Part shown: positions 22,668 through 27,819 of the stretch, one piece after another
Position numbering within the stretch: position 1 is the first letter of the stretch
Layout: every line of letters starts with the position of its first letter
From: Candidatus Shapirobacteria bacterium
GTDB lineage: Bacteria > Patescibacteriota > Microgenomatia > UBA12405
Length of the DNA stretch: 64,000 bases
Reading direction: 5' to 3'
Assembly: GCA_016188545.1 (NCBI GenBank)
Contig: JACPHO010000001.1
Location: 175,336 to 239,335, forward strand
Program-made: the position numbers and the translations under genes
Notes under the pieces: model-generated
Database searches by the model: none
What the model saw: only the letters and a program-made list of their open reading frames with translations
Told to the model about the DNA's origin: nothing

Positions 22668-23540
22668 ATGCTCACCAAAATCAACGAATTACAAGCCAAA
22701 ACAATTCTCACCAAATCCGGTCTGCCAGGTGCTGATTGGGTAATTAATCCATATCGTGGCTGCCAAATGGGTTGCATGTATTGCTATGCTGCCCAAATCG
22801 CCAGATGGAAACACCCAAGCGAGGAGTGGGGGAGTTATCTAGACATCAAAATCAATGCCCCCGAATTACTCAAAAAAGAACTGACAAATCTCGAAACAAA
22901 AAACAAATCAAAAGATTTTGGATTTATATTCTTCAGCTCCGTTACTGATCCTTATACTCCACTCGAGGCCAAATATCACTTAACCCGCAGCTGTCTTCAA
23001 GTTTTATCCGATTTTGGGTATGAGGGTAAAATTGGAATTCAGACAAAATCACCCCTCGTTTTAAAAGACATCGACATTTTAAAACTTCTAAAAAATGTCC
23101 AAGTAGGCTTTACCGTAACAACTTTGGACGACAAGGTATCTAGGTTTTTGGAAGTATCAGCTCCACCAGTCAGCGAAAGAATCAGAGCATTAAAAGAGCT
23201 AAGCCGACGAGGTGTCCCCACCTACGCTTTTATTGGCCCGTTATTGCCACATTTTATGAATAGTAAGGCAGATATCAACCACTTACTGGACACACTCCAG
23301 GATGCCGGTGTTGCCGAAGTCTGGTTTGAGCACATTAACTTAAGTTCAAAGATCAAAGCCCGACTTTTCGAATATCTAGAGACCGAGTCTCCTAATTTAA
23401 TTCCCGAGTTTGAAAAGGCTGACAACCAAGAGTATCGGGACAAGTTCAATCAGGTTATCTATGAATGCCTTGAAGGCAGAAATCTCAAACTAGGACTTGG
23501 CAAGGTAATTTTCCATCACGATTTACCCCAGAAAAAATGA
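22668..23540 (+). CDS. Radical SAM protein, spore-photoproduct-lyase (SplB/COG1533) family
   Basis: CQMGCMYC = CxxxCxxC; NPYRGC context typical of the SPL family. Confidence 0.6.
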   Translation: MLTKINELQAKTILTKSGLPGADWVINPYRGCQMGCMYCYAAQIARWKHPSEEWGSYLDIKINAPELLKKELTNLETKNKSKDFGFIFFSSVTDPYTPLEAKYHLTRSCLQVLSDFGYEGKIGIQTKSPLVLKDIDILKLLKNVQVGFTVTTLDDKVSRFLEVSAPPVSERIRALKELSRRGVPTYAFIGPLLPHFMNSKADINHLLDTLQDAGVAEVWFEHINLSSKIKARLFEYLETESPNLIPEFEKADNQEYRDKFNQVIYECLEGRNLKLGLGKVIFHHDLPQKK

Positions 23541-23866
23541 AAAAAACTTCCCCAACTCCATTTATGAAAAAAGTTTGGGAACTAGCCCTCTCAATCCCTC
23601 CCGGACGAGTTACTACTTATGGTTTACTAACCATTAGTGCTGGCGGTCACCCGATGATGGCTCAGATGATTACTTCTATTCTGGGGCGCAGCCCGGACGT
23701 AGACCGCATCCCTTTTCATCGGATTGTCTATGCCGGCGGGAAAGTCTGGATGTCACCCAAATATCGCAAGGTAAGATTAAAACTATATAAAGAAGAGGGG
23801 ATCATCTTAGATAAAAAAGATAAAATAGCCAACTTTGAAAAGATAGTCTATGGTTTTGGTTTATAA
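23537..23866 (+). CDS. Alkyltransferase-like (ATL) protein: MGMT DNA-binding fold without the active-site Cys
   Basis: PFHRIV replaces PCHRV; compare the true Ogt at 27502. Confidence 0.55.
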   Translation: MKKTSPTPFMKKVWELALSIPPGRVTTYGLLTISAGGHPMMAQMITSILGRSPDVDRIPFHRIVYAGGKVWMSPKYRKVRLKLYKEEGIILDKKDKIANFEKIVYGFGL

Positions 23867-23875
23867 TATTTTTTA

Positions 23876-24313
23876 ATGAGGAAAGATATCCAGGAATATT
23901 TGACCGAAGCGACCGATCTTTCGGCCATCGGACATAGACTAGTTGAGTTTCTGAGATGTCTAAAAAGTCAGGGTAACCCAAAAATCGGGTATGTAGCAGG
24001 CATGATTACTTCTGAGGGGCCAGAGTTTGTCGAGCGTAACTTATTGCGACTGGAGAAATACACCCAACAAATATCTAAAAAGTATCATTTCCCAGTATTT
24101 TCCCAAAATGATATTTTTACACCCGAGGTTTACCAGCTAATCAAAGCATCAGGAGTGACTAGAGAGGAATTTGAGGAATTTTATCGACAGGTTCACGGAT
24201 CAGGTTTAATAACCCACCTGTTTATGACTCCTAGATGGGAGTTGTCACGTGGGGCCACCGACGAGTTGAACACGGCAGTAATGGCCAATCTAACCATAAT
24301 TTATATTGAGTGA
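23876..24313 (+). CDS. Hypothetical protein (possibly nucleoside-deoxyribosyltransferase-like/DUF4406-like fold)
   Basis: IGYVAGMITSEGPEF pattern; weak. Confidence 0.35.
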   Translation: MRKDIQEYLTEATDLSAIGHRLVEFLRCLKSQGNPKIGYVAGMITSEGPEFVERNLLRLEKYTQQISKKYHFPVFSQNDIFTPEVYQLIKASGVTREEFEEFYRQVHGSGLITHLFMTPRWELSRGATDELNTAVMANLTIIYIE

Positions 24314-24321
24314 CAGGTTAT

Positions 24322-24350
24322 TTGACACACTAAATGAGGGGTGCTACAAT
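24322..24350 (+). promoter_or_regulatory. Consensus sigma70 promoter TTGACA-17 nt-TACAAT (with TGC extended -10)
   Basis: Read directly: ttgaca cactaaatgaggggtgc tacaat. Confidence 0.7.
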
Positions 24351-24511
24351 CCGTACATAAATCGAAATTTCAATGATTGCATCGAAACTTTCGGTAGTTC
24401 TTTAAAATTTTGGTTTTGTTCCCGAGATCGACAAGCAGTAAACTAGTTTTACTATTTATCGATCCCGGGAATCTCTCCAAATTTGTTCGTGTCCGATTTT
24501 TACCCGTAGTT

Positions 24512-24606
24512 CGAGTTCCAAGGCAAGTGTAGTGTTCTACCGCAAGCGTACGAGTTCAGCAAGTGTAGTGTTCTACCGCAAGTGTTCGAGTTCCCTGCAA
24601 GTGGCC
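24512..24606 (+). repeat. ~2.6 tandem copies of a 36-39-nt unit (cgagttc..gcaagtgtagtgttctaccgcaag..)
   Basis: Exact 24-mer gcaagtgtagtgttctaccgcaag at 24523 and 24559; cgagttc at 24512, 24551 and 24587. Confidence 0.8.
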
Positions 24607-24918
24607 CCACCGCATCCTACCCCTGGGATGAAAGCTTATTAAAGACACGGCGAATGTTTTGGAGAGACGTCGTGTCGATGGTGAGGATGGCATATGCCCT
24701 CCTCTACCGCGGTCGCCCAAAAGGGCGACCACCACACACAAAAAACCAAAAACAAAAACAAAAAAACAGCAAGACCTTGGACTAAAAATCCTTTGTATAT
24801 ATATTTTTTATATATCCCCAAAGTGTTTTTATTCCGCTGTTTTTTTTCGTAATTCCGATGATATCGGAACTGATGAGTTCTGAGACTTATGTCTCTAAGA
24901 ACGAATACGACCACTTCA

Positions 24919-24941
24919 ATACCCCACATGGGGTATTTTTT
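24919..24941 (+). terminator. Rho-independent terminator
   Basis: ATACCCCA-cat-TGGGGTAT hairpin + TTTTTT. Confidence 0.65.
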
Positions 24942-24957
24942 ATGTCACAATAATCTT

Positions 24958-25107
24958 ATGTCTACCGACAAAACTGCTCTAGGCGACCTTAAAATCTTAT
25001 TGACCATCATCTTCTTTGCCAGTTTAATTTGGGGATTTTTTAAGTTCAAAAATAAAATATCTTCCACCGCTCGTCCTGTTCCTTCAACTCAAGTAAATCA
25101 AAAATAG
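24958..25107 (+). CDS. Possible small membrane protein (49 aa)
   Basis: MSTDKTALGDLKILLTIIFFASLIWGFF; weak. Confidence 0.2.
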   Translation: MSTDKTALGDLKILLTIIFFASLIWGFFKFKNKISSTARPVPSTQVNQK

Positions 25108-25802
25108 TGTCTATTCACACCGAGCTTCAAAAACTAAACTACTCCGTTGATACCAAGACCCGACAATGGGTTCAAAAATACCTCGGTTCAGATAAACCCA
25201 CACGTTGCATCAAGTCCGCTGTCATCCAGCAGATTGCAAAAGATAAATTAAAAGGAGTCACTAGCCCTAACAACCTTTTTGGTTTGATTGATGATATTTA
25301 TACTCACGCCACTACTTTTGAAGAAATGGCCATTGCCGCCAATATTTTCACCAAAGGCCGTCGCAATCACGACTCATCGGTAATAAAATACTTGGACAAG
25401 TGGCTAAATAAAACCGTAGGTTGGGCTGAAGTTGACAGTCTATGTCAGTCGAGTATCAGTGCGATTGATATGCTAAAAAACTGGTCAAAATGGCGTAAAC
25501 AGCTAAACACTTTTTCCCTCGATAAAAATGTCCATAAGCGTCGTGCATCTATGGTCTTGCTCTGTCGGTCACAACGCGAGTCGGATGACTCCCGCCTATC
25601 AGACTTAGCATTCGAGTTGGTGAATAGATTAAAAGGGGAGAAGGATATCTTGATTACCAAAGCCATCTCCTGGATCCTCAGATGCACCGTAAAGCACCAC
25701 CCAGACGAATTGGCAGTCTATTTAGAAGACCATGTAGACACTTTACCTCGAGTTGCCTATCGTGAAGCCAGTAAAAAATTGGCTACTGGTAAGAAAAACT
25801 AA
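25107..25802 (+). CDS. AlkD/AlkC-family DNA alkylation repair glycosylase (HEAT-like repeats)
   Basis: C-terminal KAISWILRCTVKHHPDELAVYLEDHVDTLPRVAYREASKKL matches PF08713. Confidence 0.65.
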   Translation: MSIHTELQKLNYSVDTKTRQWVQKYLGSDKPTRCIKSAVIQQIAKDKLKGVTSPNNLFGLIDDIYTHATTFEEMAIAANIFTKGRRNHDSSVIKYLDKWLNKTVGWAEVDSLCQSSISAIDMLKNWSKWRKQLNTFSLDKNVHKRRASMVLLCRSQRESDDSRLSDLAFELVNRLKGEKDILITKAISWILRCTVKHHPDELAVYLEDHVDTLPRVAYREASKKLATGKKN

Positions 25803-27501: not shown

Positions 27502-27819
27502 ATGCAAATATTCCAAAAAATTAGGCACATTGTCTGTCAAATCCCATCAGGGAAAGTCAGCACTTATGGCGCCATAGCTAAGGCAGTTGGTACCGATCCT
27601 AGGGTTGTTGGTTGGGCACTTAAGGGTAACTCTGATATGGCTATACCTTGTCATAGAGTAGTTAAGGCAAACGGTAGTCTGGCAGCCCAGTTCTCACTGG
27701 GTAATTGGCCGGAACAGCGCCGCCGCCTGGTTCTGGAGGGCATTGAGTTCACTGGGAATAGAATTAAAAACTTTCCGAAGGTCCAGTTTACTCCGGGAGC
27801 GATAGATATAAATACCTGA
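27502..27819 (+). CDS. ogt: Methylated-DNA--protein-cysteine methyltransferase (catalytic domain only)
   Basis: IPCHRVV active-site motif. Confidence 0.65.
   Translation: MQIFQKIRHIVCQIPSGKVSTYGAIAKAVGTDPRVVGWALKGNSDMAIPCHRVVKANGSLAAQFSLGNWPEQRRRLVLEGIEFTGNRIKNFPKVQFTPGAIDINT

What the first reader, a model, noticed from the sequence alone, without database searches (positions are those of the whole stretch)
24322..24947. Promoter-to-terminator ~620-nt GC-rich non-coding locus inside a DNA-repair operon
A textbook sigma70 promoter (TTGACA-17-TACAAT with TGC extended -10) fires into ~600 nt that contain no credible ORF. The region is conspicuously GC-rich for this AT-rich genome (ggccccaccgcatcctacccctggg; gcggtcgcccaaaagggcgacc). 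It contains a 12-bp-stem hairpin (24421-24471), ~2.6 tandem copies of a 36-39-nt unit (24512-24606) and a hammerhead-like core, and it ends in a clean intrinsic terminator (24919-24941). I could not match RNase P, tmRNA, SRP or 6S signature sequences. It sits between the ATL/DUF gene and the AlkD-like gene, so it could be a novel regulatory or catalytic RNA tied to the DNA-damage response.
Basis: seen in the sequence. Interest (0 to 1): 0.72.

Follow-up and report, generated by a model that had tools for sequence, protein, structure and literature searches.

The report
New structured RNA with hammerhead tail
A roughly 590-base stretch with no gene in a Candidatus Shapirobacteria (CPR) genome encodes a conserved, heavily folded RNA that matches no known family, and its 3' end carries a hammerhead self-cleaving ribozyme motif; the RNA is real and new, but what its main body does is unknown.

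Summary
Window 24322-24943 is a transcription unit with its own promoter and terminator. The promoter is TTGACA-17-TGC-TACAAT; the intrinsic terminator is at 24918-24937. No credible ORF lies in it, and there is no Rfam, tRNA or tmRNA match. Homologous loci exist in four other Shapirobacteria contigs (L003, L051, L052, L053). A sixth contig has the same gene layout, but its DNA could not be read. All five readable loci keep the promoter, terminator and helices P1, P2, P3, P7 and P8. Covariation is strong: in the 5' domain 13 pairs changed on both sides, matched by 0 of 500 shuffles. It is present in four loci, with all three stems paired in every copy and 11 of 22 pairs changed on both sides. 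It is canonical in L053. The window copy has U15.1-A16.1, a variant reported to cleave slowly. I read this as a new stand-alone structured RNA family whose hammerhead trims its 3' end and separates it from a downstream small-ORF-alkD unit. The body's function and any DNA-damage link are untested.

The parts
24322..24350 (+). Sigma-70-type promoter: -35 TTGACA, 17-nt spacer, extended -10 TGC-TACAAT. Predicted transcription start near 24357.
   Evidence: 11 of 12 consensus positions, TG present. The same TTGACA-17-TAYAAT is found in L003, L051, L052 and L053.
24361..24395 (+). P1, the 5' hairpin: outer stem 24361-67 with 24389-95, inner stem 24370-75 with 24380-85.
   Evidence: RNAalifold on 5 sequences. 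Pair counts: 97% of cells paired, one pair changed on both sides, several one-sided G-U changes.
24396..24407 (+). Conserved unpaired linker AGUUCUUUAAAA.
   Evidence: Nearly invariant in all 5 loci.
24408..24417 (+). P2 5' strand, UUUUGGUUUU. It pairs with 24742-24751.
   Evidence: Inverted repeat I6. Pair probability is 0.80-0.96 in independent folds of all 5 homologues. Low sequence complexity and little covariation.
24419..24471 (+). P3, a long hairpin. The lower and upper stems covary. The internal motif ACAAGY / (A/U)UUUAU, with two C-A mismatches, is conserved in sequence.
   Evidence: 12 of 22 pairs changed on both sides. L003 has an entirely different stem sequence but the same internal motif.
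24472..24493 (+). P4 5' strand (UCUCUCCAAA) continued by UCGUGUC. It pairs with 24644-24667 and closes the variable domain.
   Evidence: Inverted repeat I7. Probability 0.88-0.98 in four homologues. One compensatory C-G to U-A change in L052. The exact register of the extension is tentative.
24494..24643 (+). Hypervariable central domain. It holds the 36-nt tandem repeat (24523-24593) and five GCAAGY motifs.
   Evidence: Only 51-59% identity between homologues, which is about the level of unrelated sequence. The repeat is window-specific.
24644..24667 (+). 3' strands of the P4 helix set: GACACGG ... UUUGGAGAGA.
24680..24708 (+). P6, an irregular hairpin: GGU-GAGGA-GGC / GCC-UCCUC-ACC.
   Evidence: pairing is kept through A-U to G-C and G-C to A-U changes in L051 and L053. 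L003 has no P6.
24711..24730 (+). P7 hairpin: GGUCGCCC-AAAA-GGGCGACC.
   Evidence: Present in all 5 loci, with a G-C to A-U compensatory change in L003.
24731..24762 (+). G-free C/A-rich tract. It contains the P2 3' strand at 24742-24751.
   Evidence: Conserved in composition in all 5 loci.
24760..24846 (+). P8: AAAAAAACAGC (24760-70) pairs with GCUGUUUUUUU (24836-46) and encloses a conserved AU-rich hairpin domain.
   Evidence: Inverted repeat I5. Two compensatory changes in L003.
24847..24910 (+). Type III hammerhead motif. Stem III is 24847-51 with 24906-10. Position 17 is A24852, so cleavage is predicted between 24852 and 24853. Stem I is 24853-59 with 24863-69. Core CUGAUGA is 24870-76. 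Stem II is 24877-24902. GAA is 24903-05. The 15.1-16.1 pair is U-A instead of A-U.
   Evidence: A descriptor scan finds one hit in the 64-kb window against a mean of 0.01 in 200 shuffles. Hand alignment. Model R2 finds the L053 and L052 copies. 80 of 80 cells are paired and 11 of 22 pairs changed on both sides. A natural U15.1-A16.1 variant is reported to self-cleave inefficiently (PMC3088659).
24918..24943 (+). Intrinsic terminator: 8-bp stem, 4-nt loop, U-tract.
   Evidence: Nearly identical in L051-L053. L003 has a different terminator hairpin at the equivalent place.
24958..25107 (+). Downstream 49-aa small ORF with one predicted membrane helix. Its TAG stop overlaps the GTG start of the AlkD-like gene (25107-25802).
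   Evidence: The terminator plus the first 90 nt of the ORF are 90-98% identical between loci whose alkD genes are 73-84% identical.

Best explanation
Window 24357-24943 is the gene for a stand-alone, highly structured non-coding RNA of a family not yet described. So far it has been seen only in a small clade of Candidatus Shapirobacteria.

It is transcribed from a near-consensus sigma-70 promoter and ends at an intrinsic terminator. The body (about 496 nt) folds into a multi-helix structure. A long-range U-tract/A-tract helix (P2) encloses three things: a covarying hairpin with a conserved internal motif (P3), a closed hypervariable expansion domain, and two conserved hairpins (P6, P7). A further domain (P8) follows.

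Directly after P8 lies a type III hammerhead. Its self-cleavage after A24852 would give the mature RNA a 2',3'-cyclic-phosphate end just past P8. It would also detach the RNA from the terminator and from any read-through into the downstream small-ORF-alkD unit, which would then begin with a 5'-OH.

Shown here: the locus, its conservation, the helices and their covariation, and the hammerhead architecture.

Inferred: transcription, actual cleavage (probably slow in the window copy because 15.1-16.1 is U-A), and action in trans. The function of the body is unknown. My best guess is that it binds a protein or scaffolds an RNA-protein complex, with the conserved P3 internal motif and the unpaired linker as candidate contact sites.
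For: Transcription signals:
- The promoter and terminator are the best sites in the region and are conserved in all five loci.

Not a known RNA:
- No Rfam family reaches its gathering score anywhere in the 64-kb window, and there is no tRNA or tmRNA. The L053 homologue has no match at E<=1 either.

Not coding:
- No Pfam match to any ORF over the region.
- No protein homologues of the 138-aa ORF called over the L053 copy.

Conservation:
- Homologues in L003, L051, L052 and L053 come from distinct species; their alkD genes are 73-84% identical at the DNA level.
- The 5' domain (76-90%) and the P5-P8 core (79-94%) are conserved as well as or better than alkD. The centre is not (51-59%).

Structure:
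- 5' domain: 97% of cells paired, 13 pairs changed on both sides, 0 of 500 shuffles as high, and the signal collapses when partners are slid.
- P7 and P8 have compensatory changes in L003.
- Independent partition-function folds of all five RNAs recover P2, and the four long ones recover P4.

Hammerhead:
- One descriptor hit in the window against 0.01 expected, and one at the homologous place in L051, L052 and L053.
- Core CUGAUGA and GAA and the G10.1-C11.1 pair are invariant, and all three stems are fully paired in all four copies.
- A model built only from the window and L051 copies finds L053 (42 bits) and L052 (36 bits) in the same register.
- 11 of 22 pairs changed on both sides.

Stand-alone rather than a leader:
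- L003 has the RNA body with its own terminator but no hammerhead and no co-oriented downstream gene. The four loci with a hammerhead all have the small-ORF-alkD unit downstream.
Against: - Only five sequences from one narrow clade are available. The window and L051 are 90-98% identical over the 3' half, so the effective sample is about four.
- There are no expression data.
- Folding energy is even better on the - strand. The strand call rests on the promoter, the terminator and the hammerhead.
- Rfam's Hammerhead_3 model does not report the window or L053 copies. It gives L052 only 18.9 bits against a gathering score of 48.5, and in a different register.
- Three of the four hammerhead copies depart from the catalytic consensus: U15.1-A16.1 in the window and L051, and G17 in L052. 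Cleavage may therefore be weak or lost.
- The central junction (P4/P5) has competing pairings that I could not resolve.
- The hammerhead pair counts were made on a model-fitted alignment, which leans towards the structure.
- Nothing tested here indicates what the body does.
Confidence: 0.62

Rival explanations
1. The RNA is a cis-acting leader of the small-ORF-alkD unit. In this reading the long structured RNA plus the terminator is an attenuator or riboswitch-like sensor that sets read-through into alkD. The hammerhead then cuts the leader off and tunes mRNA stability.
For: - No separate promoter-like site lies between the terminator and the small ORF.
- The small ORF starts 14 nt after the U-tract.
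- The terminator and the start of the small ORF form the most conserved segment of the locus, at 90-98%.
- Four sequenced loci, and by gene layout a fifth contig without DNA, have RNA, then small ORF, then alkD in that order.
Against: - L003 keeps the promoter, RNA body and a terminator, but the next gene is convergent and alkD lies elsewhere on that contig.
- I found no conserved antiterminator pairing. The only CCCCA-type candidate is absent from L052 and L053 (sequences).
- A 500-nt leader with a hypervariable centre would be unusual.
Confidence: 0.2
2. The locus is a relic or domesticated copy of a hammerhead-bearing selfish RNA element, such as a viroid-like, satellite or retroelement-derived sequence, that inserted next to the repair genes.
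For: - Bacterial hammerheads are often found in prophage or mobile contexts (PMC3088659).
- The RNA is missing from the syntenic site in L001, L005 and L006.
- Identity is mosaic: L051's 5' domain resembles L053 (90%) while its hammerhead resembles the window (97%). This suggests recombination.
- The centre is hypervariable.
Against: - Each locus has only one hammerhead, so a unit cannot be excised or circularised.
- No reverse transcriptase, integrase or flanking repeats are nearby.
- The position after the ATL gene or ATL-plus-145-aa gene is constant in all loci.
- No match in IMG/VR beyond chance.
- L003 has the body without any hammerhead.
Confidence: 0.08
3. It is a highly diverged housekeeping RNA (RNase P RNA, tmRNA, 6S or SRP RNA) that Rfam models fail to recognise in CPR bacteria.
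For: - It has a strong constitutive-looking promoter and a size in the range of RNase P RNA or tmRNA.
- CPR RNAs are often divergent (my own knowledge).
Against: - No hit to any of these families even at E<=10 on a 951-nt slice.
- ARAGORN finds no tmRNA.
- I saw no tRNA-like end and no RNase P P4 or CR-I/CR-V signatures on reading the sequence.
- It contains a hammerhead, which none of these RNAs has.
- A 21-nt conserved pattern found it in only one of 185,579 GTDB species representatives. That pattern is strict, so this is weak evidence.
Confidence: 0.04
4. It is a decayed or unrecognised protein-coding gene, or a DNA-level element such as a protein-binding palindrome or an origin, and not an RNA.
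For: - A gene caller placed 138-aa and 75-aa ORFs over the L053 copy.
- A 10-codon micro-ORF in P1 is in frame in four loci (sequences).
- The - strand also folds well.
Against: - The ORFs are not conserved between loci, have no Pfam match and have no homologues.
- The micro-ORF frame is broken in L003, and its substitutions follow the P1 pairing rather than codon positions.
- Helices keep complementarity while changing sequence, which a DNA site bound by protein would not do.
- The promoter, terminator and hammerhead core are all oriented on the + strand.
Confidence: 0.03

Closest known systems
Hammerhead ribozyme, type III (Rfam RF00008, clan CL00010)
   Same: The 3' module has the defining layout: stem III open, N17, a closed stem I hairpin, C3-U4-G5-A6-U7-G8-A9, a closed stem II hairpin beginning G10.1-C11.1, G12-A13-A14, then stem III. 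All stems covary across four loci. The L053 copy is fully canonical, with UUA at the cleavage site.
   Different: The window and L051 copies carry U15.1-A16.1, and L052 carries G17. The Rfam model scores them below its gathering score or not at all. Activity is untested. The motif sits at the 3' end of a large non-coding RNA rather than in a viroid, satellite, repeat or prophage.
Hammerheads that flank genes in bacterial prophage transcripts (Perreault et al. 2011, PMC3088659)
   Same: A self-cleaving motif sits between two transcription units, where cleavage would separate an upstream RNA from a downstream mRNA. [quoted passage not shown]
   Different: There is no prophage context here and only one hammerhead per locus. 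The upstream unit is a structured non-coding RNA rather than an mRNA.
Large structured bacterial non-coding RNAs of unknown function (OLE, GOLLD, ROOL, HEARO, raiA)
   Same: It is several hundred nucleotides long, has many conserved helices, is restricted to one lineage, is intergenic with its own transcription signals, and has no assigned function.
   Different: No match to any of these Rfam models. The known distribution is much narrower, at 5-6 loci. It has an embedded hammerhead and a hypervariable expansion domain.
ToxI-type antitoxin RNA of type III toxin-antitoxin systems (36-nt tandem repeats)
   Same: The window has a 36-nt tandem repeat inside a promoter-to-terminator non-coding unit upstream of a gene.
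   Different: There are only 2 copies. The repeat is absent from all homologues. The downstream genes are a 49-aa membrane peptide and AlkD, not a ToxN-like endoribonuclease.
Protein-sponge RNAs with repeated short motifs (CsrB/RsmZ, CrcZ)
   Same: The window and L052 carry 5-7 copies of GCAAGY in the central domain, and the same motif (ACAAGY) sits in the conserved P3 internal loop. An A-rich tract follows P7.
   Different: The motif array is absent from L051 and L003 and sparse in L053. No candidate binding protein is identified. The only Rfam CrcZ match is a 9-bit partial hit on the wrong strand.

Membership tests
Hammerhead ribozyme type III | Core C3-U4-G5-A6-N7-G8-A9 between stems I and II | tested here: met
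   CUGAUGA at window 24870-24876, and invariant in L051, L052 and L053.
Hammerhead ribozyme type III | Core G12-A13-A14 between stems II and III | tested here: met
   GAA at window 24903-24905, and present in all four copies.
Hammerhead ribozyme type III | Three helices around the core, with stems I and II closed by loops and stem III open | tested here: met
   Descriptor scan: 1 hit per locus against 0.01 expected per 64 kb. 80 of 80 cells paired and 11 of 22 pairs changed on both sides.
Hammerhead ribozyme type III | A15.1-U16.1 base pair | tested here: not met
   The window and L051 have U15.1-A16.1; L053 and L052 have A-U. PMC3088659 reports that a natural U-A variant self-cleaves, but inefficiently.
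Hammerhead ribozyme type III | Position 17 is not G (the NUH rule) | tested here: met
   A in the window (24852), L051 and L053. L052 has G17 and so fails this feature.
Hammerhead ribozyme type III | G10.1-C11.1 pair closing stem II | tested here: met
   G-C in all four copies.
Hammerhead ribozyme type III | Score at or above the Rfam RF00008 gathering score | tested here: not met
   No hit for the window or L053. L052 scores 18.9 bits against a gathering score of 48.5, in a different register.
Hammerhead ribozyme type III | Site-specific self-cleavage | not testable with these tools
   Needs in vitro transcription and a cleavage assay.
RNase P RNA, tmRNA, SRP RNA, 6S RNA | Match to the family covariance model or to ARAGORN | tested here: not met
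   No such hit at the gathering score in 64 kb or at E<=10 in 24200-25150. ARAGORN finds nothing.
Known large non-coding RNAs (OLE, GOLLD, ROOL, HEARO, raiA) | Match to the Rfam covariance model | tested here: not met
Type III toxin-antitoxin (ToxI-like RNA) | A conserved array of tandem repeats followed by a ToxN-type endoribonuclease gene | tested here: not met
   Two copies only, in the window only. The downstream genes are a 49-aa peptide and PF08713 AlkD.
Cis-regulatory leader or riboswitch | Always lies upstream of, and on the same strand as, the regulated gene | tested here: not met
   In L003 the next gene is convergent. In the other four loci the feature is met.
Independent non-coding RNA gene | Own promoter and terminator, no conserved ORF, and helices kept by compensatory change in several species | tested here: met
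Independent non-coding RNA gene | A discrete transcript is detected | not testable with these tools
   No RNA-seq data are available here.

The most novel reading that the evidence does not exclude
This is a previously unrecognised class of large structured RNA in CPR (Patescibacteria) bacteria that matures itself with a built-in hammerhead. Its conserved core (P1 and linker, the P3 internal motif, P7, the C/A tract, P8) would perform a trans-acting job of its own, such as scaffolding or sequestering a protein, possibly one tied to the alkylation-repair genes it always sits beside. The hammerhead fold is kept even where the catalytic consensus is broken (U15.1-A16.1, G17). That would mean either unusually tolerant natural hammerheads or a second, structural use of the fold.
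Probability: 0.4. Interest if true: 0.8.

Novelty: new variant of a known kind. Interest (0 to 1): 0.64.

Why it matters
CPR bacteria have very small, gene-dense genomes. A 0.6-kb non-coding locus with a near-perfect promoter, conserved as well as or better than the neighbouring protein gene, is therefore likely to matter to the cell. New large structured RNAs are rare, and they have repeatedly led to new biology.

In the literature I could search, I found no report of a hammerhead in Patescibacteria.

The four copies form a natural series: canonical, U15.1-A16.1, and G17. All three stems are paired in every copy. This makes a simple bench test possible: is catalysis or only the fold under selection?

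There is also a practical point. Gene callers have annotated false proteins over this RNA in at least one public assembly (L053).

Tried and rejected
- **Known RNA families.** Rfam at the gathering score over the whole window, Rfam at E<=10 on the locus and ARAGORN gave only chance-level sub-threshold hits: an S6-S18 leader on the - strand at 26 bits against a gathering score of 47, Phe_leader driven by the terminator, and some miRNA or snoRNA models.
- **Upstream-gene search in GTDB genomes.** A search with the upstream 145-aa protein found no relatives.
- **Conserved-pattern scans.** A 21-nt pattern in GTDB genomes found only the L003 contig again. A 20-nt version of the same pattern gave 39 matches in JGI metagenomes, all of them chance, with no flanking similarity.
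- **IMG/VR scans.** Two patterns gave only chance matches, checked with model R1 and by reading the sequence.
- **Second copies.** Models R1 and R2 found no further copy in the window or in L001, L005, L006, L007 or L055.
- **Coding hypothesis.** No Pfam match. No homologues of the L053 ORF. The 10-codon micro-ORF in P1 was rejected because L003 breaks its frame.
- **Antiterminator.** The only candidate complementary to the terminator (the CCCCA in P8) is not conserved in L052 or L053.
- **P5 as a pseudoknot with P4.** Rejected as drawn, because the connecting loop would be 0 nt. A nested alternative (YGUGU with ACACGG) is favoured in four independent folds.
- **RNAduplex between the RNA body and the small-ORF start.** The result was uninformative.
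- **ToxI-like reading of the 36-nt repeat.** Rejected, because the repeat is window-specific.
- **Two look-ups of the window's own upstream protein.** The collection held no record for it.
Full report
**What is in the window.** The interval reads as the first-stage reader described it.
- A TTGACA hexamer (24322-24327) is followed by a 17-nt spacer ending in TGC and then by TACAAT (24345-24350). The consensus scan rates this 11 of 12 with the TG, the best site in 23500-25800.
- The only terminator-like site in that stretch is the 8-bp stem at 24918-24937, followed by a T-run.
- Between them the longest ORFs are 74 aa (+) and 96 aa (-). None has a Pfam match.
- TRF finds 2.0 copies of a 36-nt unit at 24523-24593, and an 11-nt piece of it recurs three times.
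- GC-richness is overstated. The whole unit is 41.9% GC against 39.4% for the window, and only 24500-24740 reaches 53.9%.
- The RNA folds much better than shuffles on the + strand (z = -7.4) and even better on the - strand (z = -10.5). Energy alone does not give the strand.
- Rfam reports no family at its gathering score anywhere in the 64 kb, and only chance-level matches at E<=10 on the locus. ARAGORN finds no tRNA or tmRNA.

**Organism and context.** The upstream 145-aa protein is identical to a hypothetical protein of Candidatus Shapirobacteria, a CPR lineage. Pfam confirms the neighbourhood:
- an MgsA-type ATPase;
- a radical-SAM, SPL-like protein;
- an alkyltransferase-like PF01035 protein (23537-23866);
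- the 145-aa protein without a Pfam match (23876-24313);
- the RNA locus;
- a 49-aa ORF (24958-25107) whose stop codon overlaps the start of an AlkD-like PF08713 gene (25107-25802);
- a convergent DEAD-box helicase and a second PF01035 gene.

**Homologues.** Contigs carrying relatives of the 145-aa protein and of AlkD were fetched. BLASTN and reading of the sequences show a homologous non-coding locus in four of them:
- L003, from GCA_018062705.1 (L004 and L011 are the same sequence);
- L051;
- L052;
- L053.

A JGI contig whose DNA could not be fetched has the same layout: the 145-aa gene, a 592-nt gap, a 48-aa ORF and AlkD.

All five readable loci keep TTGACA-17-TAYAAT at the same place, and all end in an intrinsic terminator. 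In L001, L005 and L006, which are other Shapirobacteria, the 145-aa gene is followed directly by the helicase gene. A covariance model of the 5' domain finds nothing in them, nor in L007 or L055.

Public-collection scans added nothing:
- A strict 21-nt pattern found only the L003 contig among GTDB species representatives.
- A 20-nt version of the same pattern found only chance matches in JGI metagenomes.
- Two patterns found only chance matches in IMG/VR.

**Conservation pattern.** Between the four long loci:

| Segment | DNA identity |
|---|---|
| alkD gene | 73-84% |
| RNA 5' domain | 76-90% |
| P5-P8 core | 79-94% |
| Central ~150 nt | 51-59% (about the level of unrelated sequence) |
| Hammerhead | 57-68% (97% between window and L051) |
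| Terminator plus first 90 nt of the small ORF | 90-98% |

Identity is mosaic. L051 resembles L053 in the 5' domain but resembles the window in the hammerhead. This suggests recombination between lineages.

**Structure of the body.**
- *P1 and P3.* RNAalifold on the 5' domain of all five sequences gives P1 and the long hairpin P3. On that alignment 97% of cells pair and 13 pairs changed on both sides. No shuffle out of 500 reaches this, and the signal collapses when partners are slid by one to three columns.
- *P3 detail.* Both P3 stems are replaced almost completely in L003. The internal motif ACAAGY opposite (A/U)UUUAU, with two C-A mismatches and a G-U pair, is invariant. This pattern is what a recognition site held in a helix would show.
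- *P7 and P8.* P7 (GGUCRCCC-loop-GGGYGACC) and P8 (AAAAAACAGY with RCUGUUUUUU) have compensatory changes in L003.
- *P6.* P6 keeps its pairing through A-U to G-C and G-C to A-U changes in L051 and L053.
- *Long-range helices.* Independent partition-function folds of the five RNAs all recover P2 (UUUUGGUUU with AAACCAAAA, p = 0.80-0.96). The four long RNAs also recover P4 (UCUCUCC with GGAGAGA, p = 0.88-0.98; one C-G to U-A change in L052). P4 is continued by a nested YGUGU/ACACGG helix that closes the variable domain.
- *Rejected alternative.* A hairpin ACACGG/CCGUGU (my first P5) cannot coexist with P4, because the connecting loop would be 0 nt. I treat the junction as unresolved.

**The hammerhead.** Directly after P8 the window reads UCGUA-A-UUCCGAU-GAU-AUCGGAA-CUGAUGA-GUUCU...AGAAC-GAA-UACGA (24847-24910). 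This is the type III hammerhead layout, with cleavage predicted after A24852.

*More than chance.* A descriptor (CUGANGA, GAA, three stems of at least 4 bp) finds exactly this one site in 64 kb on both strands, against a mean of 0.01 in 200 dinucleotide shuffles. It also finds one site at the homologous place in L051, L052 and L053, and none in L003 or the other loci.

*Covariation.* The three stems differ in sequence between copies and are fully paired in all of them. A covariance model built only from the window and L051 copies finds the L053 copy (42.1 bits, E about 2e-7) and the L052 copy (35.6 bits, E about 7e-6) in the same register, and nothing else significant in 165 kb. On that alignment 80 of 80 cells pair and 11 of 22 pairs changed on both sides, with no shuffle out of 500 as high. 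The alignment is fitted to the model, which favours the structure.

*Core.*
- L053 is canonical: A15.1-U16.1 and UUA at the cleavage site.
- The window and L051 have the 15.1-16.1 pair flipped to U-A.
- L052 has G at position 17.

Perreault et al. 2011 report that a natural U15.1-A16.1 hammerhead self-cleaves, less efficiently than a typical one (PMC3088659). By the established NUH rule, G17 is expected to be inactive.

*Rfam.* The Hammerhead_3 model does not report the window or L053 copies even on short slices. It gives L052 18.9 bits against a gathering score of 48.5, in a register that ignores stem I. Family membership is therefore met by architecture, core and covariation. It is not met by the curated model, and catalysis is untested.

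**How it most likely works.**
- *Shown:* a conserved transcription unit with its own promoter and terminator, a set of covarying helices, and a hammerhead fold.
- *Inferred:* the unit is transcribed on the + strand from about 24357.
- *Inferred:* hammerhead cleavage leaves a mature RNA of about 496 nt that ends six bases past P8 with a cyclic phosphate.
- *Inferred:* cleavage releases a fragment of about 90 nt carrying the ribozyme and the terminator. On read-through, it releases the small-ORF-alkD mRNA with a 5'-OH.

The distribution fits a processing or insulating role. The four loci with a co-oriented small-ORF-alkD unit downstream have the hammerhead. L003's next gene is convergent, and it has the body and a terminator but no hammerhead.

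L003 also argues that the body has a function of its own rather than being only a leader. What that function is cannot be derived here. I favour protein binding or scaffolding, with the invariant P3 internal motif and the invariant linker AGUUCUUUAAAA as candidate contact sites.

**Rivals.**
- *Leader or attenuator of the small-ORF-alkD unit.* This is the main alternative, because there is no separate promoter for the small ORF and the terminator-to-ORF segment is extremely conserved. L003 and the lack of a conserved antiterminator count against it.
- *Selfish-element relic.* Suggested by the patchy presence and the mosaic identity. Weakened by the single hammerhead, the constant synteny, the lack of mobility genes and the lack of viral matches.
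- *Diverged housekeeping RNA, decayed gene or DNA-level element.* Each is contradicted by the tests listed in the rival section.

**Novelty.** The 3' module is a new member of a known ribozyme class, in a phylum where my literature search found no hammerhead report. The body matches nothing in Rfam 15. The composite, a large structured RNA that carries its own hammerhead at the 3' end, is to my knowledge not a described arrangement in bacteria.

The evidence base is small: five sequences from one clade, with no expression data.

Noticed in passing
window 24958-25107 (also L051 5852-6001, L052 5852-6001, L053 3794-3943): A 49-aa ORF (MSTDKTALGDLKILLTIIFFASLIWGFFKFK...) has one hydrophobic helix. 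Its TAG stop overlaps the GTG start of the AlkD-like gene, which suggests translational coupling. The terminator plus its first 90 nt are 90-98% identical between loci whose alkD genes are 73-84% identical. There is no Pfam match, and gene callers missed it in L051 and L052.
   Followed up: partly
window 24523-24602; L052 5440-5495: The hypervariable centre carries arrays of GCAAGY (5 in the window, 7 related motifs in L052, 2 in L053, none in L051 or L003). The same motif appears as the conserved ACAAGY in the P3 internal loop. This could be a repeated binding motif or just repeat slippage.
   Followed up: partly
L051 vs L053 vs window (segments): Identity is mosaic. L051's 5' domain is 90% identical to L053 but 76% to the window, while its hammerhead is 97% identical to the window but 67% to L053. 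This suggests recombination within the RNA gene between lineages.
   Followed up: no
L053 3300-3943: The public gene calls for this contig place a 138-aa and a 75-aa 'protein' over the RNA, the hammerhead and the terminator. The 138-aa product has no homologue in 5.8 billion proteins, so it is very likely a false gene call.
   Followed up: yes
window 24374-24406: A 10-codon micro-ORF inside P1 and the linker (M-I/F-A-S/L-x-L/F-S-V-V-L-stop) is in frame in four loci but frame-shifted in L003. I judged it a by-product of RNA conservation.
   Followed up: partly
window 24964-24935, - strand: A weak promoter-like site (TAGACA-18-AAAAAT, 9 of 12) points antisense from the first codons of the small ORF through the terminator. 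It could give an antisense transcript and might add to the extreme conservation of this segment.
   Followed up: no
window 24488-24493, 24644-24649, 24671-24676: GACACG can pair with either of two identical CGUGUC copies, one upstream and one downstream. The upstream pairing is nested with P4 and the downstream one is not compatible with it. This is a possible structural switch that I could not resolve with five sequences.
   Followed up: partly
window 1-64000: There is no tRNA or tmRNA gene (ARAGORN) and no Rfam family at its gathering score in the whole 64 kb.
   Followed up: no
window 23537-23866 and 27502-27819: Two paralogous short proteins consist only of the PF01035 DNA-binding domain (109 and 105 aa, alkyltransferase-like). 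They flank the RNA-alkD-helicase block. Together with the radical-SAM, SPL-like gene and MgsA, they make this a repair-gene cluster.
   Followed up: no
L005 3105-3677: In one related contig a Y1-transposase-like gene (faint PF01797 hit) is inserted between the MgsA and radical-SAM genes. This shows that the neighbourhood is a site of rearrangement.
   Followed up: no
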